A stretch of 52,633 nucleotides of DNA from an uncultured Mycoplasmatota bacterium (GTDB taxonomy: Bacteria > Bacillota_I > Bacilli_A > RF39 > UBA660), in assembly GCA_946553095.1 (NCBI GenBank), contig CAMNRN010000002.1, forward strand, positions 1 to 52,633, in the 5' to 3' direction. A program made the translations under genes and the position numbers. Positions 23,635-35,363 of this stretch are shown here, in pieces. The notes under the pieces are model-generated. The model did no database searches. It was not told the origin of the DNA and saw only the letters and a list, made by a program, of their open reading frames with translations. Numbering within the stretch: position 1 is the stretch's first letter; each line of letters opens with the position of its first letter.

Positions 23635-25386
23635 ATGGCAAGTATATATATGGGTAGATTTAACGGTTTAAATGGAAACAGTAATTATGGTAGTTATAAC
23701 GTTTATTTCAATTATAATTCTAATGGAACTACATTAACCGATATGTCTATATCATTCGCAGATGCTACTGGTAATGGAAAATACACCACAAATTCTATGT
23801 GGCTTGCAGATGTCAGTGTTGCTGGACAAAAACCAGGTTTTGATTCATCTAAACAAAAAGGTTATGTTAATGGTGGAAAAGTATACAACTGGTCTAGAAG
23901 TATATATGGTTCTATAAATGCCGGAGGGACTAGTGCTTACATATGGGTAAGAATCTATAGATCTGGTAATACATATACTGATTTGGATTGTACTGTAACT
24001 GGTTTAGCCACACCACCTACAGGTGTTTGGTGTAGTGCTAGTGCCGCAAGTGAAACTGGTATTAATCTATCTGGAGGATATTCATCAAATGGTGGTGCTG
24101 GTGTAACCGGTACACAATTCCAGTATTATACGGTAGGTGGTAGCTGGACTAATTGTGGTTCATCGTTAACTGGTTTATCAGCTAACACAACTTATTATTT
24201 TAGAGTTGGATACACTAATGCTGCTGGTACTAGTTGGTCTGGTGAAACGTCAGCAACTACATATGATTACCCAAAACCAACTTCTTTAAATGATGTAACA
24301 ATTGGTGGGGCTATAACTACCGAGATATACAATCCACTTAAACGAGCTATAACTATAGGTTTCTATGATAGTGGAGGAACACTATTATTTAGTAGAACAT
24401 CATCGGCAAATGGATCTCATAGTTATACACCAACAACCGCAGAATACGATAAATTTTATGCGCGTATACCGAATGATAAACGGGGTTCATATTATGTTAA
24501 GGTCACATATGGATCTTCTAATAAGACTTACGGAAATAGAACATATTCAATAAAGAATACAGAGAACCCAGTATTTGATAGTTCATATATTATTAATGTA
24601 GTTAATACAAAGCACACAGATATAGCTGGTAGTAGTAAATTTATTAGTGGACATAATACCTTATCTGGTTCTATTAAGCCGATGATTCCACAAAAGTCGG
24701 CAAATGGTAGTAAGTATAGTTTATCCACATCTGGACAAACTCAAGAAAAAACTTTCTCAACTAGTAATATTCCGTTCACATTTAATGATATAACAAATAA
24801 TACTTTAAGTATAACAGCCCAGGATTCAAGAGGTTTAACAAAACAAGCATCTGTAACTTTAGATATAGTTGCTTATAATAAACCATCGGTTAGTAGTTAT
24901 ACATTAGTTAGACAGAATGGTACCGGCACTCATGCTATTTGGAATGTTACCGGAGTATATACCAACTGGACTGGGCTAACCAAATCAAATACTATAAAGA
25001 AAGTTGAATGGAGATGGAAACCTAATACAACATCTGGAACGTGGTCCAATTGGGCTGATATTACTTCAAGTCTGGCTACGAACGCTAATGGAGTATGGAA
25101 AGTTTCAATTATCCCATCACAAACGTTTAATAATGCTTCTGAATTCTTATTGCAATTGAGAGTTACAGATATGTTAGAAACGGTAGAAATGTCAGAAATG
25201 ACTTTATCTACAGCCAATGCTTTTATATGGAAAGATTTAGCTAATAAAAGAGTTGGTATTAATAAAAAACCTACTGAAGCATTAGATGTCGCTGGTAATA
25301 TAAAAGGTAGCGGTAATGTCGAAGCACCAAATATCAAAGGCAATGCTTTATATATTAATGGTATTAAAATGCTTTGGTATGAATAA
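23635..25386 (+). CDS. Minor tail protein with Fn3/Ig-like domains
   Basis: S/T/G-rich beta protein, GL.ANTTYYFRV Fn3 motif, C-terminal VGINK.P.EALDV.G fibre motif. Confidence 0.75.
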   Translation: MASIYMGRFNGLNGNSNYGSYNVYFNYNSNGTTLTDMSISFADATGNGKYTTNSMWLADVSVAGQKPGFDSSKQKGYVNGGKVYNWSRSIYGSINAGGTSAYIWVRIYRSGNTYTDLDCTVTGLATPPTGVWCSASAASETGINLSGGYSSNGGAGVTGTQFQYYTVGGSWTNCGSSLTGLSANTTYYFRVGYTNAAGTSWSGETSATTYDYPKPTSLNDVTIGGAITTEIYNPLKRAITIGFYDSGGTLLFSRTSSANGSHSYTPTTAEYDKFYARIPNDKRGSYYVKVTYGSSNKTYGNRTYSIKNTENPVFDSSYIINVVNTKHTDIAGSSKFISGHNTLSGSIKPMIPQKSANGSKYSLSTSGQTQEKTFSTSNIPFTFNDITNNTLSITAQDSRGLTKQASVTLDIVAYNKPSVSSYTLVRQNGTGTHAIWNVTGVYTNWTGLTKSNTIKKVEWRWKPNTTSGTWSNWADITSSLATNANGVWKVSIIPSQTFNNASEFLLQLRVTDMLETVEMSEMTLSTANAFIWKDLANKRVGINKKPTEALDVAGNIKGSGNVEAPNIKGNALYINGIKMLWYE

Positions 25387-25408
25387 ATTCAAAATGGAGG
25401 AATTTAAA

Positions 25409-25600
25409 ATGAAAAAAATATTAAATAGAAATGGGGGAGGGGCAAAACTATTAAGTAGCCCTTCTCCTGAAGGAATTCTATATTATAATCACCTCTTAAA
25501 ATCGGGGGGGGGGGTGCACAGAATAATTTATGTGCCTCTTTTAACGATTTTAGAGGACTCTATACCAAGTTTGGAGGTGAGCGTTATAACTTACGCTTAA
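25409..25600 (+). CDS. Leader ORF containing G11 tract (63 aa as assembled)
   Basis: GGAGG RBS at 25396-25400; ORF spans three hairpins and the G11 run at 25504-25514. Confidence 0.55.
   Translation: MKKILNRNGGGAKLLSSPSPEGILYYNHLLKSGGGVHRIIYVPLLTILEDSIPSLEVSVITYA
25504..25514 (+). repeat. Poly-G homopolymer (G11)
   Basis: Longest G run noticed in this AT-rich window. Confidence 0.95.
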
Positions 25601-25621
25601 CCTCTAATGAGGTGTCATATT

Positions 25622-26038
25622 ATGTCTAATCCAAGAATTAATCAAGATTTAATGATTGGCGAAAGCGATGTAACATTAGCGGATATTAATTATACAAGGA
25701 CCAAACTAAATAATGCTAATTTAAAATTCAAATCGCAAACAAATTATGTTGATGATATGGGACCAGATACAAATTATCAAATACCCTATCCAAATGGAGA
25801 ACCTATATTTGTAGAACCGTTATTTAAAATGGCTGGTACAGATTTTTCTGGTGGTCATTTCGTAATACCAGGATCATCATTCACATATATTCCATGTAAA
25901 GAACAACCAGGAAGTGGTTATACGGGGGTATATGTGTTTTGTTCATCCAATTTATATATATCAATATCAGCCTATTGTCATTGTGGCAATACTATTAAAG
26001 GCTTTAGAACATGGTATTTAGACAAATATGACTCTTGA
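25622..26038 (+). CDS. Short tail-tip / receptor-binding module (class A)
   Basis: GAGGTG RBS; N-terminus IN....IG....TL similar to 27170 gene; beta-rich C-terminus. Confidence 0.55.
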   Translation: MSNPRINQDLMIGESDVTLADINYTRTKLNNANLKFKSQTNYVDDMGPDTNYQIPYPNGEPIFVEPLFKMAGTDFSGGHFVIPGSSFTYIPCKEQPGSGYTGVYVFCSSNLYISISAYCHCGNTIKGFRTWYLDKYDS

Positions 26039-26054
26039 GTTATAACTTAAATTA

Positions 26055-26525
26055 ATGGAATTAAAATGTTCTGATGATTTAAAAAAGTTATTCTTAGATT
26101 TTGCTTATCCGATAGGTAGTGTATATATGACCAGAACTAATAACGATCCAAATGAATTATTTGGTGGAACTTGGGTTAGGAATAATAATGCCTATATTTA
26201 TGCTTGCTCAGGAGATATCACAGATGGATATCAAGGAAATGGTAATATAACTAGACCGTCGTCTGGAAACACGGGGAGTACTATATTAACCATTGATCAA
26301 ATCCCATCACATACGCATGCTATAAAATCAGGTTACGGCGGTGAAGATAATATAGCTTATGATAGTTATAGATATCAATATTGGGGACATTATTCAAATG
26401 GATGGAAAAGTGGTGACTTAGGAACAGGCGCAAATGGCGGCGGAAAGGGTCATACTCATACATTAGGAGATCATACTCATACCATTCCATGGATAGGAGT
26501 ACATTTTTGGTATAGAACAGCATAA
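26055..26525 (+). CDS. Tail collar/baseplate gp10-C-like short fibre protein (class B)
   Basis: YPIGSVYM, P.ELFGGTW, LTIDQIPSHTH and HTH motifs, C-terminal WYRTA. Confidence 0.8.
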   Translation: MELKCSDDLKKLFLDFAYPIGSVYMTRTNNDPNELFGGTWVRNNNAYIYACSGDITDGYQGNGNITRPSSGNTGSTILTIDQIPSHTHAIKSGYGGEDNIAYDSYRYQYWGHYSNGWKSGDLGTGANGGGKGHTHTLGDHTHTIPWIGVHFWYRTA

Positions 26526-26541
26526 ATAATTCAAAATCAAA

Positions 26542-27000
26542 ATGGCTACATTAAAAGCTAGTTCGGATTTACAATCACTAATTAAAAAAATTGTTTTAGA
26601 TACATATTTTCCAGTTGGAAGTATATATCTTTCAGTTAATAAAACTAATCCTGGATCTACATTTGGTGGAACTTGGGAGTTAGTAACTAATGATTCATAT
26701 TTACATTGTTATAATCCTAATAATCAATGGTTTGCTAATATAGGTGTGAATAATAAGGGAACTGGTAATCAACAAGGAAGCTTCAATACTAATGATACAG
26801 TATTAACGATTGAACAATTACCGCCTCATACACATAATGCGAAACATTTAGCATCATTGCGAGGTAATAGTAATGGTTGGGCTGGTTCTCTTGGTACATT
26901 ATCTGGAGAAGTCACAGGTCCGATGGGATCTGCAAAGGGACATAGTCATTATCATGTCTTACCCTTTTACATAGTTGCTGTATGGAAAAGAATTAAATAA
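26542..27000 (+). CDS. Tail collar/baseplate gp10-C-like short fibre protein (class B paralog)
   Basis: FPVGSIYLS, NPGSTFGGTW, LTIEQLPPHTH, C-terminal WKRIK. Confidence 0.8.
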   Translation: MATLKASSDLQSLIKKIVLDTYFPVGSIYLSVNKTNPGSTFGGTWELVTNDSYLHCYNPNNQWFANIGVNNKGTGNQQGSFNTNDTVLTIEQLPPHTHNAKHLASLRGNSNGWAGSLGTLSGEVTGPMGSAKGHSHYHVLPFYIVAVWKRIK

Positions 27001-27032
27001 TATAGAATTTACTTAAAAACTTGCCAAAATAT

Positions 27033-27173
27033 ATGATACAAAATATCTTAAGTCATATATATACGCAAGAATCGAGGTGGATCACAAGTAATTTATGGTC
27101 CACTAAACAAGGAGGCGAAAGGCGTTTAATATCTTATTCGTCTTTACCTCTTGGAAGCTGGTGTTATCTATGA
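27033..27173 (+). CDS. Second leader ORF (46 aa), stop overlaps next start (ATGA)
   Basis: MIQNILSHIYTQESRWITSNLWSTKQGGERRLISYSSLPLGSWCYL*; TGA 27171-27173 overlaps ATG 27170; no clear RBS. Confidence 0.4.
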   Translation: MIQNILSHIYTQESRWITSNLWSTKQGGERRLISYSSLPLGSWCYL

Positions 27174-27592
27174 ATAGTCTTCATATCAATGAAAATACTG
27201 AAATAGGTAACACAGGAATAACTTTAAAAGAGTTATTAAATAAATTAAATGATAAAGCTGAGAATTCAGCGATAACATCTATAAATAACAATATTGAAAA
27301 TCTAACTACCATTACAAATAGGCTTAATACATATCGTTTTTATTATGGAACTGAACATTCTACAGATTATTGCAATGAAATGATACACAATGGAGTATAT
27401 TGGTGGGGACCAGAACATGCTAATCGACCAGGTTCACAATATGGAACAATGATCGTGGTTAATTCCACTGGTATTGAATATAATAAAATAAATAACTGGT
27501 GTAATCAATTAGCATTTGGAACTGATGGTGTTATATGGTTTAGACAAAGTATAAATGCTGGTCCATTTGGTAATTGGGTTAGAGTTAATTAA
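27170..27592 (+). CDS. Short tail-tip protein with pyocin-knob-like domain (class A)
   Basis: GVY...N.P....G.MIV...Q.AF.....WFR.......W pattern of fibre knob domains. Confidence 0.7.
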   Translation: MNSLHINENTEIGNTGITLKELLNKLNDKAENSAITSINNNIENLTTITNRLNTYRFYYGTEHSTDYCNEMIHNGVYWWGPEHANRPGSQYGTMIVVNSTGIEYNKINNWCNQLAFGTDGVIWFRQSINAGPFGNWVRVN

Positions 27593-27611
27593 AAAGGAGG
27601 AACTGAAAAGA

Positions 27612-27992
27612 ATGGATGCTTTTTGGCAATTTCTTAGTGCTGTCATAGTAGCTGGTATGGGTGTTATAACAGTGGTTATACAAACTAGAAATAAAAATAA
27701 GTTAGATAATCAAAAAACTTTACTTGATACAGTAAATGCAAATATTGCAGCTATGCGAAAAGAAAGTAAAGATGATGATGAAAAACTTAGTAAAAAGCTA
27801 GATACTCACGAACTAACCTCGCTGAAAAGATTCTTAGTAGATGAATTAGCAAAGATTAAAAACGGGGTTTATATCCCTACTGACAATCAGAAATCGTTAA
27901 TACACGAAGCTAAAAAAGAATACAATGATTTAGGCGGAGATAGTTACGTAGATGAAATGTTTGATGATTTAGTAGAAAAAGGTCTACTTTAA
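27612..27992 (+). CDS. Membrane-anchored lysis-module protein (holin-associated)
   Basis: N-terminal TM helix, coiled coil, C-terminal Y..LGGDSYV; AAGGAGG RBS. Confidence 0.6.
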   Translation: MDAFWQFLSAVIVAGMGVITVVIQTRNKNKLDNQKTLLDTVNANIAAMRKESKDDDEKLSKKLDTHELTSLKRFLVDELAKIKNGVYIPTDNQKSLIHEAKKEYNDLGGDSYVDEMFDDLVEKGLL

Positions 27993-31667: not shown

Positions 31668-32420
31668 ATGAATAATATTCAATATTTATTAAAGAAACAT
31701 TCGACTTTAATAATGACTGTTGTTGCATCTGGAGGAGTTATAGCTACTACGGTATTGGCCGTAAAAGCAACCCCTAAAGCTCAAAAATTGCTAAAGCAGG
31801 CAGCATTATCTAAAGGCAAACCATTAACGACTATTGAAAAAATTAAATATGGTTGGAAACCATATATTGGTTGTGGTATATCTTGTCTTGCTACACTAGG
31901 TTGTATAGCTAGTATAGAATATTTAAACCATCAAAAACAAATCTCACTTATCTCTGCTTATACTATATTGCAAAACTCCTTCGAGCAGTATAGAGGTAAT
32001 ATTAAACAAATTTGTGGAGATGATGTAGATTTGTTAGCTCGACAAGAGATTGTTAGAGCGAGATATGAGGGTATGGATGATCCTCATATGCCGGAGGACG
32101 AAGAAATATTGTTCTTTGATTATCAAGGAATGAGGTTCTTTTGGAGTTCATTTCATAATGTAATGACTGCAGAACATAAGCTTCTAGAGTCATTACATGC
32201 ACGAGGGTATGCTTGTCTTAATGAATATTACGACTATTTAGGTATACCGCGATTAGATTATGGTTATCAACTGGGGTGGGCAGACTATGAGAGCTGTGAT
32301 CCATACAATGTTCATGAATTAGAATTCAACTACGAACAAACATTTATGGGTAAAGATAAAGACGTACAATGCTTTATTATATCAGCTAGTTTACCCGCAA
32401 CATTTGATTATATATTATAG
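31668..32420 (+). CDS. DUF6353-like membrane-anchored protein, paralog 1
   Basis: KHS..I..., TTVLAVKATPKA, GY..LNEYY..LG, GW motifs shared with 32661 and 34428. Confidence 0.75.
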   Translation: MNNIQYLLKKHSTLIMTVVASGGVIATTVLAVKATPKAQKLLKQAALSKGKPLTTIEKIKYGWKPYIGCGISCLATLGCIASIEYLNHQKQISLISAYTILQNSFEQYRGNIKQICGDDVDLLARQEIVRARYEGMDDPHMPEDEEILFFDYQGMRFFWSSFHNVMTAEHKLLESLHARGYACLNEYYDYLGIPRLDYGYQLGWADYESCDPYNVHELEFNYEQTFMGKDKDVQCFIISASLPATFDYIL

Positions 32421-32438
32421 GAAAGGAGATATGCAAGT

Positions 32439-32648
32439 ATGAAAAAAGTTCTAAAAAAGATAGATTGGTTTCAAGTTGGTGTATTAGGCTTAGGAATAGC
32501 TGCATCTATAGCTAAATCTTTTTATGAAAATAAGAAATTTGACGAAGCTCTTAATAAGAAATTCGACGAAAAGATTGAGAAAAAAGTAGACCAATTAATC
32601 AAAGACGGCTTAATTAAGCCTGTAAAAGACATAAGTAAAATAAAATAG
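32439..32648 (+). CDS. Small membrane-anchored protein
   Basis: AAGGAG RBS; hydrophobic stretch then charged coil. Confidence 0.7.
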   Translation: MKKVLKKIDWFQVGVLGLGIAASIAKSFYENKKFDEALNKKFDEKIEKKVDQLIKDGLIKPVKDISKIK

Positions 32649-32660
32649 GAGGATTGAAAT

Positions 32661-33425
32661 ATGAACGAGAAGATTCATAATGCTGTTAAAGCAGCAAAGG
32701 GATTCATATCCAAACATAGTCCTGAGATTCTTACTGGTATAGGACTAGCTAGTATGGTAACTTCTACTGTATTTGCAGTTAAAGCTACTCCAAAAGCTTT
32801 AGAATTAATACAAAAAGAAGAGTACGAACGTAAGGAAAGATTGAAACCAAAAGATGTACTTCTAACTACTTGGAAAGAGTATATACCTGCTGCATCATTT
32901 GGTATAGGGGGATTAATATGTATCATATCTGGATGTAGGATTGGTGCAAAAAGAGGAGCTGCATTAGCAACCGCTTATACTGTGTCCGAACGAGCTTTCA
33001 GAACTTATAGAGAAAAAGTTGTTGAAACTATAGGTGAGAAGAAAGAAAAAGATATCAGACAAAAGATAAACCAAGAGGATATAGATAAGAATCCTCCAGT
33101 TGAATCTAAAATTGTTATTACTCAAAAAGGTAATACTTTGATTAAAGATGAACATTCTGGTAGATATTTTAGATCTGATTTAGATACTATAAGAAAAGCT
33201 GTGAACGAACTCAATAGAGAGATGTTACACAGCAATTATATTTCACTAAATCAATGGTATAGTGCTATTGGACTGGAAATGGTTAAAGATGGTCATAGAC
33301 TAGGGTGGAATATAGATAGAGGTCTTATCGAATTAGACTTTGGAACATGTCTTGCTGGTGATGAACCATGTATAACTATGGAATACTCAAGACCACCAGA
33401 GTATAATTTTGATATGATGTTTTAA
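32661..33425 (+). CDS. DUF6353-like membrane-anchored protein, paralog 2
   Basis: KHSPEILTGIG, AVKATPKA, ALATAY, YISLNQWY, LGW. Confidence 0.8.
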   Translation: MNEKIHNAVKAAKGFISKHSPEILTGIGLASMVTSTVFAVKATPKALELIQKEEYERKERLKPKDVLLTTWKEYIPAASFGIGGLICIISGCRIGAKRGAALATAYTVSERAFRTYREKVVETIGEKKEKDIRQKINQEDIDKNPPVESKIVITQKGNTLIKDEHSGRYFRSDLDTIRKAVNELNREMLHSNYISLNQWYSAIGLEMVKDGHRLGWNIDRGLIELDFGTCLAGDEPCITMEYSRPPEYNFDMMF

Positions 33426-33427
33426 AA

Positions 33428-33453
33428 TACGCGTGAAAAACACGTTATTTAAT
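33428..33453 (+). promoter_or_regulatory. Phage promoter motif copy 9
   Basis: TACGC-gtgaaaa-ACA-cgtta-TTTAAT. Confidence 0.75.
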
Positions 33454-33499
33454 GAAGAAATAAGTTCTTCATGATTATTGATTAAAGGAGGAAATTATT

Positions 33500-33694
33500 A
33501 TGGAAAATCAAAATGAAATCATGGAAGTTGTAGAACAAGGAGGTTCTAAGAAAGTACTAAAGAAAGTAGCAATAGTTGCAGCTGGAATTGCAGCTGGTGT
33601 TGCTGGAGTAGTTCTTTGGAAGAAAAGAAAAGCGAAACAACAAATTGAAGAAATTGAGATTTCCGAAGATTCTAACGAATCAGAAGAAAACTAA
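33500..33694 (+). CDS. Small single-TM protein
   Basis: AAGGAGG RBS; VAIVAAGIAAGVAGVVLW followed by KKRK. Confidence 0.8.
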   Translation: MENQNEIMEVVEQGGSKKVLKKVAIVAAGIAAGVAGVVLWKKRKAKQQIEEIEISEDSNESEEN

Positions 33695-33701
33695 TCTTTG
33701 T

Positions 33702-33736
33702 TAGAGGAGTGACTCATGTTGCTCCTTTGACTTTTT
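33702..33736 (+). terminator. Intrinsic terminator
   Basis: AGAGGAG / CTCCTTT stem followed by T run. Confidence 0.6.
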
Positions 33737-33761
33737 ATATTTTTAAGAAAGGAAAATAGTT

Positions 33762-34409
33762 ATGAGTAAAATAGACCCAAGTCAATCTATGGAAAATTTT
33801 GATTACAAATCTAACTCAAATAAGTCTAAGACTGAAGCAGTTAAGCAAGCCGAAGAAAAAAGAGTGGAAAAGGTTGTAACTGGTAAAGTGGTTACAAAGA
33901 AAAAAAGTGGATTCTCTAAATTTGCTGGTGAGTTTATATCCGAAGATGCTAAGAATATTAAATCTTATGTTATCGGAGATGTATTAATTCCAGCATTTAA
34001 GAAAGCTATATCTGATATAATAACTGATGGCATTGATATGATATTATATGGAGGAAATGGTCGAAGTCGTTCCGGAAGATCTAATGCTGATAGAGTATCA
34101 TATAGAAGTTATTATGATGATCGTAGACCATCTGATAGATTAACCACTAGTAGATATAGTAGTAATAGTTATTCATATGATGATATTATTCTTGATTCTA
34201 GAGGAGAAGCTGAAGAAGTTTTGGCTAGAATGGATGAATTAATGGATACATACGGATTAGTTAGAGTTGCCGACTTGAAGGATTTAGTTGGTATAACAGG
34301 TAGTTACACTGATAATAAATACGGTTGGACAAACATTCGTAATGCAGAAATAGTTCATGTACGTGATGGTTGGATGATCAAAATGCCTAGAGCAGTAGCT
34401 ATAGATTAA
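33762..34409 (+). CDS. Conserved hypothetical phage protein
   Basis: 215 aa; R.EAEEVL..M.EL...YG.V.VADL, YTDNKYGW motif distantly like the C-part of the DUF6353-like paralogs. Confidence 0.8.
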   Translation: MSKIDPSQSMENFDYKSNSNKSKTEAVKQAEEKRVEKVVTGKVVTKKKSGFSKFAGEFISEDAKNIKSYVIGDVLIPAFKKAISDIITDGIDMILYGGNGRSRSGRSNADRVSYRSYYDDRRPSDRLTTSRYSSNSYSYDDIILDSRGEAEEVLARMDELMDTYGLVRVADLKDLVGITGSYTDNKYGWTNIRNAEIVHVRDGWMIKMPRAVAID

Positions 34410-34427
34410 TAAAGGAGGAGTATAATA

Positions 34428-35363
34428 ATGGAATTATTAGATAAAGCAACTAGATTATTTTACGCTAGTAAAGCTACAATAGTAAAACATAGTCCTGAAA
34501 TCTTAATGGTTGCAGGCATAGCTGGTACTGTTGCTACTACAGTAATAGCTTGTAAACAAACTTTAAAAGTAGACAAAATAATGAAAGAGCATAAAGAAAA
34601 AGTGGATGCTGTTCATACTTGTATAGAAGAAAAAAGAGCAGATTACACTGAACAAGATGCTCAAAAAGATTTAACTATAACTTATACCCAAACCGGAGTT
34701 CAATTAGTTAAATTATATGCCCCAGCAATAGGATTAGGTGTATTATCTATTACAGCAATCGTGTCTGGTCATAAAATATTAAAGAAAAGAAATGTCGCAC
34801 TTGCAGCTGCTTATGCAATTGTTGATAAAAGTTTCAAGTCATATCGTTCTAATGTTGTAGAAAGATTTGGAGCACAAGTTGATGATGAGTTAAGACATAA
34901 TATTAAGGCTCAAAAAATGAAAACTAGGAATGAAGATGGAAAATCTGTTAATGAAGAAGTACAACTTATTGATGGAGATCTATCTCAATTAGAATGTAGT
35001 GATTATGCTAGATTCTTTGACTCTAGTTGTCAAGGTCATACAAAAGATCCAGAGTATAATTTAATGTACTTACGTCAACAACAATCTTATTGTAATGAGA
35101 TACTAAAATCACGAGGATATCTATTCTTGAATGAAGTATATAAAATACTTGATATACCTCAAACTAAAGCGGGTCAAATAGTTGGATGGGTATACAATAA
35201 GGATGAAAACAAAGTCGACGGTGATAATTATGTTGACTTTGGAATTTACAACACAAAATATGAACCTAGTAGAAGGTTTGTAAATGGTTGTGAATACAAT
35301 ATACTTTTGGACTTTAATGTAGATGGTCCAATTTTAGATAAAATAGGATTCGGTAGAATCTAA
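34428..35363 (+). CDS. DUF6353-like membrane-anchored protein, paralog 3
   Basis: KHSPEIL..AG, ALAAAY, RGYLFLNEVY, GQIVGW, LDFNVDG. Confidence 0.8.
   Translation: MELLDKATRLFYASKATIVKHSPEILMVAGIAGTVATTVIACKQTLKVDKIMKEHKEKVDAVHTCIEEKRADYTEQDAQKDLTITYTQTGVQLVKLYAPAIGLGVLSITAIVSGHKILKKRNVALAAAYAIVDKSFKSYRSNVVERFGAQVDDELRHNIKAQKMKTRNEDGKSVNEEVQLIDGDLSQLECSDYARFFDSSCQGHTKDPEYNLMYLRQQQSYCNEILKSRGYLFLNEVYKILDIPQTKAGQIVGWVYNKDENKVDGDNYVDFGIYNTKYEPSRRFVNGCEYNILLDFNVDGPILDKIGFGRI

What the first reader, a model, noticed from the sequence alone, without database searches (positions are those of the whole stretch)
25394..25629. Poly-G leader ORF as a candidate phase-variation switch for the tail-tip (receptor-binding) cassette
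Seen: a leader ORF (RBS GGAGG, ATG 25409) runs through three hairpins (25434-25467, 25492-25556, 25573-25605) and a G11 tract (25504-25514). Tract length gives three outcomes. G10 stops almost at once (...CTE*). G11, as assembled, stops at 25600. G12 or G9 reads ...AQNNLCASFNDFRGLYTKFGGERYNLRLTSNEVSYYV* and stops at 25627-25629, overlapping the start of the 25622 tail-tip gene (ATGTCTAA). CCTC at 25601 can pair with GGAGG 25573 or with the downstream gene's own RBS GAGG 25609. The G12 frame contains TKFGGER, matching TKQGGER in the second leader at 27033, which ends in an ATGA overlap. A second, interrupted tract (G5-A-G4, 25433-25442) lies in hairpin 1. Established: G homopolymers slip at high frequency and translational coupling can unmask occluded RBSs. 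Inference: slippage toggles which tail-tip proteins are made, i.e. host-range switching with no invertase or reverse transcriptase.
Basis: partly seen in the sequence, partly recalled or inferred. Interest (0 to 1): 0.88.

Follow-up and report, generated by a model that had tools for sequence, protein, structure and literature searches.

The report
Slippery poly-G leader before phage tail-tip genes
A mouse-gut phage carries two slippage-prone runs of G inside a short, hairpin-rich leader reading frame just ahead of its tail-tip genes, and the run lengths differ between public samples, so this is probably a stochastic on/off switch of a kind so far described mainly in Campylobacter phages.

Summary
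G11 (25504-25514) and G5AG4 (25433-25442) lie in a 235-nt spacer. The spacer holds a short ORF with a strong SD and three hairpins (fold z = -5.6). G11 is the only G/C run of 8 or more in the whole 1.3-Mb assembly.

Both tracts are hypervariable in nature. Contigs of three DNA runs show G9, an interrupted 10-mer, and an uninterrupted tract 1. Fourteen protein clusters from other assemblies imply tract-2 lengths of G8 to G13. All three downstream frames occur, plus deletions between the tracts.

The frame that ends on the next gene's ATG is open. A paralogous, tract-free leader (27003-27173) before a second tail-tip gene has the same design. Predicted folding buries half of the downstream SD in the base of hairpin 3.

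One distant relative has a G12 seven codons into an ORF right after its tail gene. About a third of the sampled genomes of this family carry G10+ tracts.

Best reading, confidence about 0.5: a contingency leader ORF gates translation of the 138-aa tail-tip gene.

Not shown: heterogeneity within one population, any effect on expression, receptor binding, or host range.

This is a new variant of a known kind. No recombinase or reverse transcriptase lies on the contig.

The parts
23635..25386 (+). 583-aa tail protein gene, the last constant tail gene before the spacer
   Evidence: phrog_372 'tail protein', E 8.8e-27. Distant homologues in 4 of 400 other genomes of the family.
25396..25400 (+). 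GGAGG Shine-Dalgarno sequence of leader ORF 1, 8 nt before ATG 25409
   Evidence: Read directly from the sequence.
25409..25600 (+). Leader ORF 1 as assembled (63 aa, frame a, TAA at 25598-25600)
   Evidence: Natural variants of this ORF form 14 protein clusters.
25433..25442 (+). Tract 1: G5AG4 here; an uninterrupted A(n)G(n) compound repeat elsewhere
   Evidence: A25438G in 3 of 3 DNA runs, and +1 G in X2. Protein variants read NRNGGA, NRKKGGA, NRKKKGGA, NRKKKGGGA, NRKKRGGA and NRKKKRGGA.
25433..25468 (+). Hairpin 1: tract 1 pairs with CCCUUCUCC
   Evidence: -20.6 kcal/mol for 25430-25472.
25492..25556 (+). Hairpin 2: the outer stem encloses an inner stem in which tract 2 pairs with the C/U-rich arm
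   Evidence: -28.7 kcal/mol. Three of 9 inner pairs are changed on both sides, yet kept, in the paralogue at 27076-27104 (my count).
25504..25514 (+). Tract 2: G11
   Evidence: G9 in X1 and an interrupted 10-mer in X2. Lengths G8 to G13 inferred from the protein variants.
25489..25629 (+). Frame-c open stretch (46 codons) that ends at TAA 25627-25629, over ATG 25622
   Evidence: Chance of such an open stretch is about 0.015, calculated from the stop frequency of 0.087 per codon. Natural G9 and G12 variants read it (P0011, P0015).
25562..25615 (+). Hairpin 3 (core 25571-25607) with a basal extension that pairs 25562-25566 with 25611-25615, part of the downstream SD
   Evidence: pair probabilities 0.89-0.99.
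25622..26038 (+). 138-aa tail-tip gene of no known family; SD GAGGTG at 25609-25614
   Evidence: No Pfam or PHROG hit. Only 4 close clusters, 85-94% identical, all starting MSNPR.
26055..27000 (+). Two paralogous Gp10_C tail-fibre tip genes (26055-26525 and 26542-27000)
   Evidence: PF21939, E 1.2e-10 and 1.8e-14. 34% identical to each other.
27003..27173 (+). Leader ORF 2, a paralogue without a G tract. It is open across the whole spacer and ends in ATGA on the next gene. It holds the (AT)4 repeat at 27055-27062, hairpin 2' at 27076-27104 and hairpin 3' at 27110-27152.
   Evidence: Local alignment to spacer 1 scores 68.5, against 42.6 +/- 5.2 for shuffles and a maximum of 61.5 in 300. C27064T in 3 of 3 DNA runs makes an ATG at 27063. 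Variants P0021 and P0022 start there.
27170..27592 (+). 140-aa tail-tip gene that shares only its N-terminal ~50 residues with the 138-aa gene
   Evidence: BLASTP: 28% identity over 53 residues, E 0.005. No family found.

Best explanation
The spacer 25387-25621 is a contingency locus built into a leader ORF.

Proposed mechanism:
1. A strong SD and ATG (25396-25411) load ribosomes onto a short ORF. That ORF must pass two slippage-prone tracts: an A/G compound tract at 25433-25442 and poly-G at 25504-25514.
2. Replication slippage changes either tract by single bases.
3. If tract 1 is out of phase, or tract 2 is in phase b, the ribosome stops 100-170 nt before the next gene.
4. In phase c it runs through hairpins 2 and 3 and terminates on the start codon of the 138-aa tail-tip gene (ATGTCTAA). 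In phase a it terminates inside hairpin 3, 7 and 22 nt before the two candidate starts.
5. Passing ribosomes would melt hairpin 3, whose base buries part of the downstream SD. They would also allow termination-reinitiation.

The outcome would be a phage population with a changing minority that makes this accessory tail-tip protein.

Shown: the tracts, the frames, the hairpin predictions, natural length variation between samples, and the paralogous non-variable leader.

Inferred: slippage within one population, dependence of the 138-aa gene on leader translation, and any effect on adsorption or host range.
For: 1. Non-random tracts. G11 is the only G/C run of 8 or more in 1.3 Mb. The expected count in the window is 0.0007-0.002.

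2. Variation in nature, from contigs of three DNA runs from three studies. X1 has tract 2 shorter by 2. X2 has tract 2 shorter by 1 with G25509A, and tract 1 longer by 1. All three have A25438G. Contigs break at the tracts in X1 and X12.

3. Fourteen protein clusters (42 member sequences) match the leader.
- 5 clusters (19 members) are in frame a.
- 5 clusters (10 members) are in frame b.
- 2 clusters (11 members) are in frame c.
- 2 clusters (2 members) have the stretch between the tracts deleted.
- Implied tract-2 lengths by cluster: G8 x2, G9 x1, G10 x4, G11 x3, G12 x1, G13 x1 (my inference from the residues).

4. Between the two tracts only frame a is open, so the two tracts act in series.

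5. Frame c is open for 46 codons and the second leader for 56 codons. The chance values are about 0.015 and 0.006, calculated from the stop frequency. Both end on the downstream ATG.

6. In the three DNA runs laid, the second leader has a new ATG at 27063 (C27064T). Variants P0021 and P0022 start there.

7. Spacers 1 and 2 are homologous, and paired changes keep hairpins 2 and 3.

8. The downstream SD is half paired, p 0.89-0.99.

9. A relative whose tail protein is 28% identical has a stop, AAGGAG, ATG, 21 nt and then G12 (L007).

10. G10+ tracts occur in 37 of 120 other genomes of the family. They include a leader-ORF design before surface-protein genes.
Against: - Only contigs were available, not raw reads. 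Mixed tract lengths inside one population are therefore not shown, and Illumina assemblies miscall long G runs.
- Only 2 of 14 clusters are in the coupled frame. So the 138-aa gene is either dispensable or not dependent on that frame.
- The clusters are ascertained by gene calling. Tract-1-out-of-phase forms cannot appear among them.
- The SD is held by only 3-5 predicted pairs, and the start codon is largely free. Independent initiation is therefore plausible.
- Tract length by itself changes nothing in the predicted SD accessibility.
- In spacer 2 the SD is not paired with hairpin 3'.
- Three of the 4 distant relatives have no tract and no spacer.
- The leader peptide has no relatives outside this lineage, so a peptide function cannot be judged.
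- The receptor-binding role of the 138-aa protein is unproven. It has no family, its AF2 model has pLDDT 49, and the Atlas hits score below 0.9.
Confidence: 0.5

Rival explanations
1. The tracts are hypermutable but have no consequence. On this view the spacer is a structured intergenic region, for example an mRNA processing or stability element or a recombination boundary between tail-tip cassettes. The G runs are only the G-rich arms of RNA hairpins, and their length drifts neutrally. The downstream gene is translated from its own SD.
For: - All three frames occur at similar frequency among the 14 clusters, with no excess of the coupled frame.
- Tract length does not change the predicted structure beyond bulged Gs.
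- The paralogous spacer keeps hairpins 2 and 3 without a homopolymer.
- Cassette content differs between samples at the spacer 3' ends. There is 1.26-1.63 kb of extra DNA at about 27156 in X1, X12 and X13, and a 605-nt skip from 25618 in X2.
- The downstream start codon is mostly unpaired.
Against: - It does not explain the strong SD plus ATG 8 nt apart at the head of the spacer.
- It does not explain the long open frames that end exactly on the next start codon in both spacers.
- It does not explain the new ATG that keeps the second leader open in other samples.
- It does not explain the same layout in L007, with a tract a few codons after an ATG directly behind the tail gene.
- A neutral G11 should decay. 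An interrupting A is seen in one tract per genome at most.
Confidence: 0.2
2. The switch acts on transcription: phase-variable attenuation. Hairpin 2 (G tract, GCACA...UGUGC, then CUCUUUU) would act as an intrinsic terminator. It would be suppressed only when a ribosome translating the leader reaches it. Tract 1 out of phase would then be OFF for all downstream tip genes, at the RNA level.
For: - Hairpin 2 is followed by a U-rich stretch, CUCUUUUAACGAUUUU.
- In a genome of the same family (G277), three paralogous loci have a leader ORF with poly-G. The long frame of that ORF runs into a 15-16-bp hairpin flanked by an A run and a U run, upstream of a surface-protein gene (reading this as a terminator is my inference).
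- G427 has poly-G directly in a terminator-like stem.
Against: - The terminator scan did not flag hairpin 2. It flagged only a weak 5-bp site at 25460-25473.
- The U's of hairpin 2 are paired with the G tract inside a larger closed stem.
- The paralogous hairpin 2' has no U run, so termination is not the conserved function of the module.
Confidence: 0.12
3. The leader ORF encodes a small protein of its own (38, 63 or 72-74 aa, by phase), such as a fibre assembly factor or adaptor. On this view the phase variation switches that protein's isoforms, not the next gene.
For: - Both spacers encode peptides that share NL(W/C)..TK.GGER..L and end at the next gene.
- Long open frames.
Against: - A full HMMER search of 1.84 billion representatives found only the peptide's own variant and two spurious repeat proteins.
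- Many amino-acid changes separate close variants.
- The shared stretch coincides with hairpins 2 and 3, which show paired changes. RNA structure therefore explains the conservation as well.
Confidence: 0.1
4. Sequencing or assembly artefact: the true phage has one fixed tract length, and the differences come from homopolymer miscalls.
For: - Long G runs are error-prone in Illumina data (established knowledge).
- Contigs break at the tracts in X1 and X12.
- Only consensus contigs were seen.
Against: - Lengths span 8 to 13.
- Variants carry point interruptions (G25509A, A25438G), compound A/G changes of 3-6 nt, and clean deletions between the tracts.
- They come from several studies and lie on long contigs of 27-59 kb.
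Confidence: 0.04

Closest known systems
Hypermutable poly-G tracts in Campylobacter Fletchervirus phages (Sorensen et al., Cell Rep 2021). I did not read the paper: it is not held. I saw only its description in PMC11959909 (passage) and its entry in reference lists.
   Same: A phage uses poly-G tracts of the kind found in its host group to diversify what its receptor-binding apparatus expresses.
   Different: As described there, the tracts sit in the receptor-binding protein genes. Here the 138-aa gene has no tract. Both tracts lie in a separate upstream leader ORF with three hairpins, and two tracts act in series. The phage is a siphovirus-like phage binned with an uncultured Bacilli genome, not a Campylobacter myovirus.
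Contingency loci in T2/T4 and other phages (Gomez, Barrick and Waters, bioRxiv 10.1101/2025.10.21.683753; abstract and outline seen)
   Same: Short repeats in phage genomes that give reversible frameshifts by polymerase slippage, creating population heterogeneity as bet-hedging.
   Different: According to the abstract, those lie within genes of every functional class. Here the repeat lies in a leader ORF and would act on the next gene.
Bacterial contingency genes with poly-G near the 5' end of the ORF or in the promoter, as in Campylobacter, Neisseria and Haemophilus (established knowledge; Campylobacter examples in passages of PMC10877375)
   Same: A homopolymer above the slippage threshold sits a few codons after a start codon, and the three phases give different stops.
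   Different: The ORF that carries the tracts is only 38-74 codons long in any phase. The protein of interest is a separate downstream cistron.
Variable G-repeat in the Helicobacter pylori tlpB mRNA leader, targeted by the small RNA RepG (PMC8295292; only the start of the abstract seen, in the listing)
   Same: A length-variable G run in an mRNA leader pairs with a C/U-rich RNA partner and tunes expression of the downstream gene.
   Different: There the partner is a trans-acting small RNA and the control is gradual. Here the C/U-rich partner is in cis, and predicted SD accessibility does not change with tract length. No small RNA was looked for.
Translational coupling by overlapping stop and start codons, and leader-peptide control (established knowledge)
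   Same: ATGTCTAA and ATGA overlaps; a hairpin covering part of the downstream SD that a translating ribosome would open.
   Different: Whether the ribosome arrives would be set by a heritable, reversible DNA length change, not by a metabolite or a charged tRNA.

Membership tests
Contingency locus (repeat-mediated phase variation) | Simple repeat long enough to slip (homopolymer of about 8 or more) | tested here: met
   G11 at 25504-25514. Tract 1 is G5AG4 here and uninterrupted (10 or more) in 3 of 3 DNA runs.
Contingency locus (repeat-mediated phase variation) | Repeat placed so that a length change alters a reading frame or a promoter | tested here: met
   The tracts lie 8 and 32 codons into an ORF with SD and ATG. 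The three phases stop at 25521-25523, 25598-25600 or 25627-25629.
Contingency locus (repeat-mediated phase variation) | Repeat length polymorphic among natural isolates | tested here: met
   G8 to G13 and all three frames in 14 protein clusters. G9 and an interrupted 10-mer in run contigs.
Contingency locus (repeat-mediated phase variation) | Mixed lengths and reversible switching within one clonal population | not testable with these tools
   All runs offered were kept as contigs. Contig breaks at the tracts in X1 and X12 are only suggestive.
Contingency locus (repeat-mediated phase variation) | Expression of a gene product changes with repeat length | not testable with these tools
   Needs reporters, proteomics or ribosome profiling.
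Fletchervirus-type poly-G in receptor-binding protein genes | Tract lies inside the coding sequence of the receptor-binding protein | tested here: not met
   No G or C run of 7 or more in 25622-27592 or anywhere else in the window. The tracts lie in a separate upstream ORF.
Translational coupling (termination-reinitiation or SD unmasking) | Upstream stop overlaps or abuts the downstream start | tested here: met
   Frame c: TAA 25627-25629 over ATG 25622. Leader 2: ATGA at 27170-27173. Met only in one of the three tract-2 phases.
Translational coupling (termination-reinitiation or SD unmasking) | Downstream SD or start occluded unless the upstream ORF is translated | tested here: inconclusive
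   GGU of the SD is paired with 25564-25566 at p 0.89-0.99, but the first two SD bases and the ATG are mostly free. This is prediction only.
Leader-peptide transcription attenuator | Intrinsic terminator (G+C stem plus U run) inside or just after the leader ORF | tested here: inconclusive
   The scan flags only a weak 5-bp site at 25460-25473. Hairpin 2 has a U-rich 3' side, but this is paired within a larger stem.
Invertase (Gin/Cin) switch, shufflon, or diversity-generating retroelement | Site-specific recombinase or reverse transcriptase encoded with the variable tail genes | tested here: not met
   Six-frame searches of the whole assembly with PF00239, PF00589 and PF00078 gave 9, 8 and 2 hits, none on contig C2.
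Known RNA family (riboswitch, intron, leader) | Match to an Rfam covariance model | tested here: not met
   No hit at gathering score in the window. Over 25300-27300 there were only two chance-level hits, E 2.5 and 3.1.

The most novel reading that the evidence does not exclude
The phage has placed two contingency repeats in series inside a leader peptide. Only the right phase of both (an AND gate, roughly 1 or 2 states in 9) lets ribosomes travel through two conserved hairpins and switch on an accessory tail-tip protein. This would be bet-hedging of adsorption specificity without a recombinase or reverse transcriptase.

The same principle, a repeat inside a leader ORF deciding whether a ribosome reaches a downstream hairpin, appears in paralogous surface-protein loci of a genome of the bacterial family the phage contig is binned with. 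There the hairpin looks like a terminator. Leader-peptide phase variation would then be a regulatory class shared by host and phage.
Probability: 0.3. Interest if true: 0.8.

Novelty: new variant of a known kind. Interest (0 to 1): 0.62.

Why it matters
Repeat-driven phase variation in phages has so far been described mainly for Campylobacter phages and, recently, T-even phages, with the repeats inside the affected genes.

If this reading holds, a gut phage of an uncultured, small-genome Bacilli lineage does the same through a leader ORF. That is a compact, portable control module. A non-variable copy of it sits before a second tip gene in the same genome.

It would also give a sequence signature that can be searched for in metagenomes: SD, ATG, a few codons, a homopolymer, hairpins, and a stop on the next start codon.

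It would help explain why tail-tip regions of gut phages assemble badly and differ between samples.

It would link the phage's switch to the poly-G loci seen in about a third of the sampled genomes of the family the contig is binned with.

Tried and rejected
Relatives with DNA context:
- No megablast or tblastn hit for the region or the 138-aa protein in the phage collection.
- A blastn 'distant' search of the spacer gave only 30-45-nt SD/ATG/A-run matches.
- IMG/VR scans found nothing with the 138-aa and 583-aa proteins, with a 25-nt spacer word, or with the L007 tail protein.
- JGI metagenome scans found nothing with the 583-aa protein or with a 32-nt hairpin-3 word.
- The GTDB contig scan with the L007 protein returned only L007's own contig.
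- A degenerate two-hairpin motif found one IMG/VR locus, L042. It lies inside coding sequence of an unrelated, G+C-richer contig, so it is a chance hit.
- Because of this, I could not align the DNA of the variants. Covariation rests on the two paralogous copies only.
- The automatic alignment of the two copies was poor, so I compared the hairpins by hand.

RNA run: X13 had no contig over 25419-27096. Its strain carries other DNA at about 27156 and contigs break at the tracts, so this says nothing about transcription.

Structure and function of the 138-aa protein:
- The AF2 model has mean pLDDT 49. I did not send it to fold search.
- All Atlas hits score below 0.9. The named ones (H_lectin, Gp53-like_C, BppL_N) are leads only.

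Other checks:
- A pure RNA-structure switch set by tract length is rejected for cis pairing.
- A G-quadruplex reading was considered. G11 alone cannot supply four G3 runs, and tract 1 is 60 nt away. I did not pursue it.
- No CRISPR spacer or other link ties the phage contig to the rest of the assembly, so host assignment rests on binning and on the family distribution of tail-protein relatives.
- The terminase tblastn gave no useful placement.
- Three literature searches listed no report of a repeat in a phage leader ORF. I judged only titles and abstract starts, so this is not proof of absence.
- Supplements of papers were not opened.

Full report
SETTING

The window is the whole contig C2 of a 1.30-Mb, 97-contig assembly. 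All long ORFs lie on the + strand, and G+C is 27-35% in 2-kb windows. It encodes:
- a terminase, a portal protein and a protease-capsid fusion;
- a 2257-aa ORF that I read as the tape-measure protein, by size and position;
- tail genes, then a holin and a CHAP-LysM endolysin;
- replication genes.

It is a siphovirus-like phage genome. Public runs that hold it are mouse-gut, gut or faecal metagenomes from 11 studies.

The finding lies between the 583-aa tail protein gene (23635-25386, phrog_372) and a row of small genes:
- 25622-26038, 138 aa, no family;
- 26055-26525 and 26542-27000, both Gp10_C tail-fibre tip domains and 34% identical to each other;
- a second spacer, 27001-27169;
- 27170-27592, 140 aa, no family;
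- the lysis genes.

The 138- and 140-aa proteins share only their N-terminal ~50 residues (28% identity over 53 residues, E 0.005). This is what one would expect of alternative tips that dock on the same partner. That reading is inference.

THE OBSERVATION

The spacer folds into three hairpins at -78 kcal/mol. Shuffles give -53.7 +/- 4.3 (z = -5.62), and none of 200 folds as well.

G11 is the only G/C run of 7 or more in the window, and the only one of 8 or more in the whole assembly. The expected number of such runs in the window is 0.0007-0.002.

The second G-rich tract lies 60 nt upstream in the same ORF. Between the two tracts only the frame set by ATG 25409 is open. A shift at tract 1 therefore stops the ribosome within six codons.

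ARE THE TRACTS VARIABLE?

Only contigs, not raw reads, were on offer. I laid three DNA runs from three studies and one RNA run.

| Run | Tract 1 | Tract 2 | Contig behaviour |
|---|---|---|---|
| X1 | A25438G | two G fewer (G9) | breaks before tract 1 |
| X2 | one G more and A25438G (G11) | one base fewer and G25509A (interrupted 10-mer) | spans both tracts |
| X12 | A25438G | not covered | one contig ends inside tract 1, the next starts at tract 2 |

A second, independent view came from the protein database. The as-assembled leader peptide retrieved 14 clusters holding 42 member sequences. By frame after tract 2:
- frame a (...VHRIIYV...ITYA/ITHA): 5 clusters, 19 members;
- frame b (...CTE, CTV or RTE): 5 clusters, 10 members;
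- frame c (...AQNNLCA...): 2 clusters, 11 members;
- the stretch between the tracts deleted (NRNGGG(G)HRII...): 2 clusters, 2 members.

From the number of Gly codons and the next residue I infer these tract-2 lengths by cluster: G8 x2, G9 x1, G10 x4, G11 x3, G12 x1, G13 x1.

Tract 1 also varies. Variants read NRNGGA, NRKKGGA, NRKKKGGA, NRKKKGGGA, NRKKRGGA and NRKKKRGGA. It therefore behaves as a compound A(n)G(n) repeat.

Two caveats apply:
- These clusters can only contain forms whose tract 1 is in phase, because other forms give ORFs too short to be found.
- They are consensus calls from assemblies.

The spread of lengths, the point interruptions and the clean inter-tract deletions on contigs of 27-59 kb are hard to ascribe to miscalling. 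Heterogeneity within one population, which defines phase variation, still remains unshown.

IS THE LEADER ORF MEANT TO BE TRANSLATED?

Evidence for translation:
- The leader has a GGAGG 8 nt before its ATG.
- Frame c after tract 2 is open for 46 codons and ends with TAA over the next gene's ATG (ATGTCTAA).
- The second spacer is open in the corresponding frame for 56 codons and ends in ATGA. With 0.087 stops per random codon, such stretches have chances of about 0.015 and 0.006. This is my calculation from that figure.
- The 3' parts of the two spacers are homologous. The local alignment scores 68.5, against 42.6 +/- 5.2 for shuffles and a maximum of 61.5 in 300. G11 is matched by GAGGTGG in spacer 2.
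- In spacer 2 the window has ACG at 27063. All three DNA runs have C27064T, which makes an ATG in the same frame. Variants P0021 and P0022 start exactly there.
- P0021 and P0022 end differently after ...LGS, at the place (about 27156) where X1, X12 and X13 carry 1.26-1.63 kb of extra DNA.
- P0015 also ends differently (...EVFLCQA). All four 138-aa homologues start MSNPR, so a different gene probably follows in that variant. I can only infer that these two forms also stop just after a start codon.

Evidence against a peptide function:
- A full HMMER pass over 1.84 billion representatives found only the peptide's own variant and two spurious repeat proteins.
- Close variants carry many amino-acid changes.
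- The shared peptide stretch coincides with hairpins 2 and 3. Between the two spacer copies, 3 of 9 inner pairs of hairpin 2 and 1 pair of hairpin 3 are changed on both sides and still pair (my count).

I conclude that the act of translation matters, not the peptide.

HOW IT WOULD ACT ON THE NEXT GENE

In the predicted ensemble, hairpin 3 has a basal extension in which 25562-25566 pairs with 25611-25615. The GGU of the SD GAGGUG is paired with p 0.89-0.99. The first two SD bases and the ATG are mostly free.

Setting tract 2 to 7-14 G changes neither the fold of hairpin 3 nor the SD accessibility. So if tract length matters, it matters through the reading frame.

A ribosome in frame c ends on the start codon. 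One in frame a ends inside hairpin 3, 7 nt before ATG 25607 and 22 nt before ATG 25622. One in frame b ends 100 nt upstream.

I therefore expect c, and perhaps a, to be ON. I expect b and every tract-1-shifted state to be OFF or low. This step is inference.

The weak points are these:
- the sequestering stem is small;
- spacer 2 does not show it;
- only 2 of 14 clusters are in frame c.

The last point fits an optional, usually silent accessory protein. It equally fits no dependence at all.

CONTEXT IN RELATIVES

The 138-aa protein has only 4 close clusters, 85-94% identical. It was not found in 60 related genomes.

The tail protein has distant homologues (28-33% identity) in 4 of 400 other genomes of the family.

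One of these is L007, whose record title is 'MAG: Bacilli bacterium'. It shows the same layout: tail gene stop, AAGGAG, ATG, 21 nt, G12. The contig ends 15 nt later, and no continuation was found in that genome.

The other three relatives have no spacer and no tract.

The four genomes with tail-protein relatives carry 5-14 tracts of G9 or longer each (my count). In a wider draw, 37 of 120 other family genomes, one per genus, have at least one G10. The window's own assembly has none apart from the phage's.

The tracts in those genomes sit in repeated contexts:
- inside the 5' end of membrane-protein ORFs (G155);
- about 45 nt before the SD of a gene family (G362);
- in a G-stem followed by a U run (G427);
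- in G277, inside a ~50-codon leader ORF. The long frame of that ORF runs into a 15-16-bp hairpin flanked by an A run and a U run, ~25-30 nt before the SD of a surface-protein gene.

The G277 case looks like a leader-peptide attenuator whose frame is set by a repeat. It shows that repeat-in-leader designs exist in this bacterial family. It also motivates the attenuation rival for the phage.

WHAT IT IS NOT

- There is no Rfam family here and no tRNA.
- No resolvase, tyrosine recombinase or reverse transcriptase lies on the contig.
- Known phages hold no similar DNA.

COMPARISON WITH WHAT IS KNOWN

Poly-G phase variation of receptor-binding proteins is reported for Campylobacter Fletchervirus phages. 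A 2025 review calls it 'an exceptional case' (passage in PMC11959909). The primary paper is not held.

A 2025 preprint reports contingency loci across T2, T4 and other phages (abstract).

A variable G-repeat in an mRNA leader is known in H. pylori tlpB, where a small RNA reads it (abstract start in the listing).

The present case works like these. It fails the Fletchervirus membership feature 'tract inside the receptor-binding gene'. What it adds:
- a leader ORF;
- two tracts in series;
- conserved hairpins;
- a tract-free paralogue.

I therefore file it as a new variant of a known kind.

VERDICT

- Observation: confirmed.
- Hypermutability between natural samples: well supported (about 0.95).
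- Regulatory phase variation of the tail-tip gene through leader translation: plausible but untested (about 0.5).
- Host-range switching: inference only.
- Interest: 0.62.

Noticed in passing
window 27055-27062 (and 27064): An (AT)4 repeat inside hairpin 1 of the second spacer is longer by 6 nt in X2 and by 8 nt in X1 and X12. C27064T in all three DNA runs creates an ATG just after it. This is a second variable repeat in the second leader.
   Followed up: partly
window ~27155-27157; 25618-26224; 27253: Tail-tip gene content differs between samples. X1, X12 and the RNA run X13 carry about 1.26-1.63 kb of extra DNA at ~27156, at the 3' end of spacer 2. In X2 a 58-nt contig joins 25618 to 26224 (skipping 605 nt; depth 19.7 against 7.9 for the unskipped form). 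X2 and X13 lack 27 nt at 27253. The inserted sequence could not be seen.
   Followed up: partly
L034, L035, L015, L023, L036 (genome G277): A paralogous family has this layout: SD, ATG, ~15 codons, G10-G18, small hairpins, and a leader ORF whose long frame ends inside a 15-16-bp hairpin flanked by an A run and a U run. A surface-protein gene with an N-terminal membrane segment follows ~25-30 nt later. Different copies are in different phases. It looks like a repeat-set leader-peptide attenuator.
   Followed up: partly
genomes G155, G362, G427 (loci L012-L039): Other poly-G designs occur in the same bacterial family. G155 has C4-G10/11 inside the 5' end of membrane-protein ORFs. G362 has G9/10 about 45 nt before the SD of a gene family, next to TATAAT-like boxes. 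G427 has G9-12 followed by ACA-CCCTCTTTTTT before genes. G10+ is present in 37 of 120 other family genomes.
   Followed up: partly
L007 16-27 (- strand), genome G155 contig C52: A G12 tract lies seven codons into an ORF that starts 14 nt after the stop of a tail protein 28% identical to the window's. The contig ends 15 nt after the tract.
   Followed up: yes
window 25351-25376 and 26048-26073: A 26-nt direct repeat, 85% identical, links the 3' end of the 583-aa tail gene (…NGIKMLW) with the start of the first Gp10_C gene, in different frames. It may be chance in A+T-rich DNA or a trace of cassette exchange.
   Followed up: no
window 31668-35363: Three paralogous DUF6353 genes (31668-32420, 32661-33425, 34428-35363) follow the lysis genes.
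   Followed up: no
window 27555-27612: The listed ORF 27555-27992 overlaps the 140-aa gene by 38 nt. An AGGAGG at about 27596-27601, followed by the in-frame ATG of MDAFWQ..., suggests the real start is near 27612. A short A run at 27590 varies by one base between samples.
   Followed up: no
rest of assembly G000: The 1.3-Mb assembly holds 9 resolvase-family, 8 tyrosine-recombinase and 2 reverse-transcriptase matches, all outside the phage contig.
   Followed up: no
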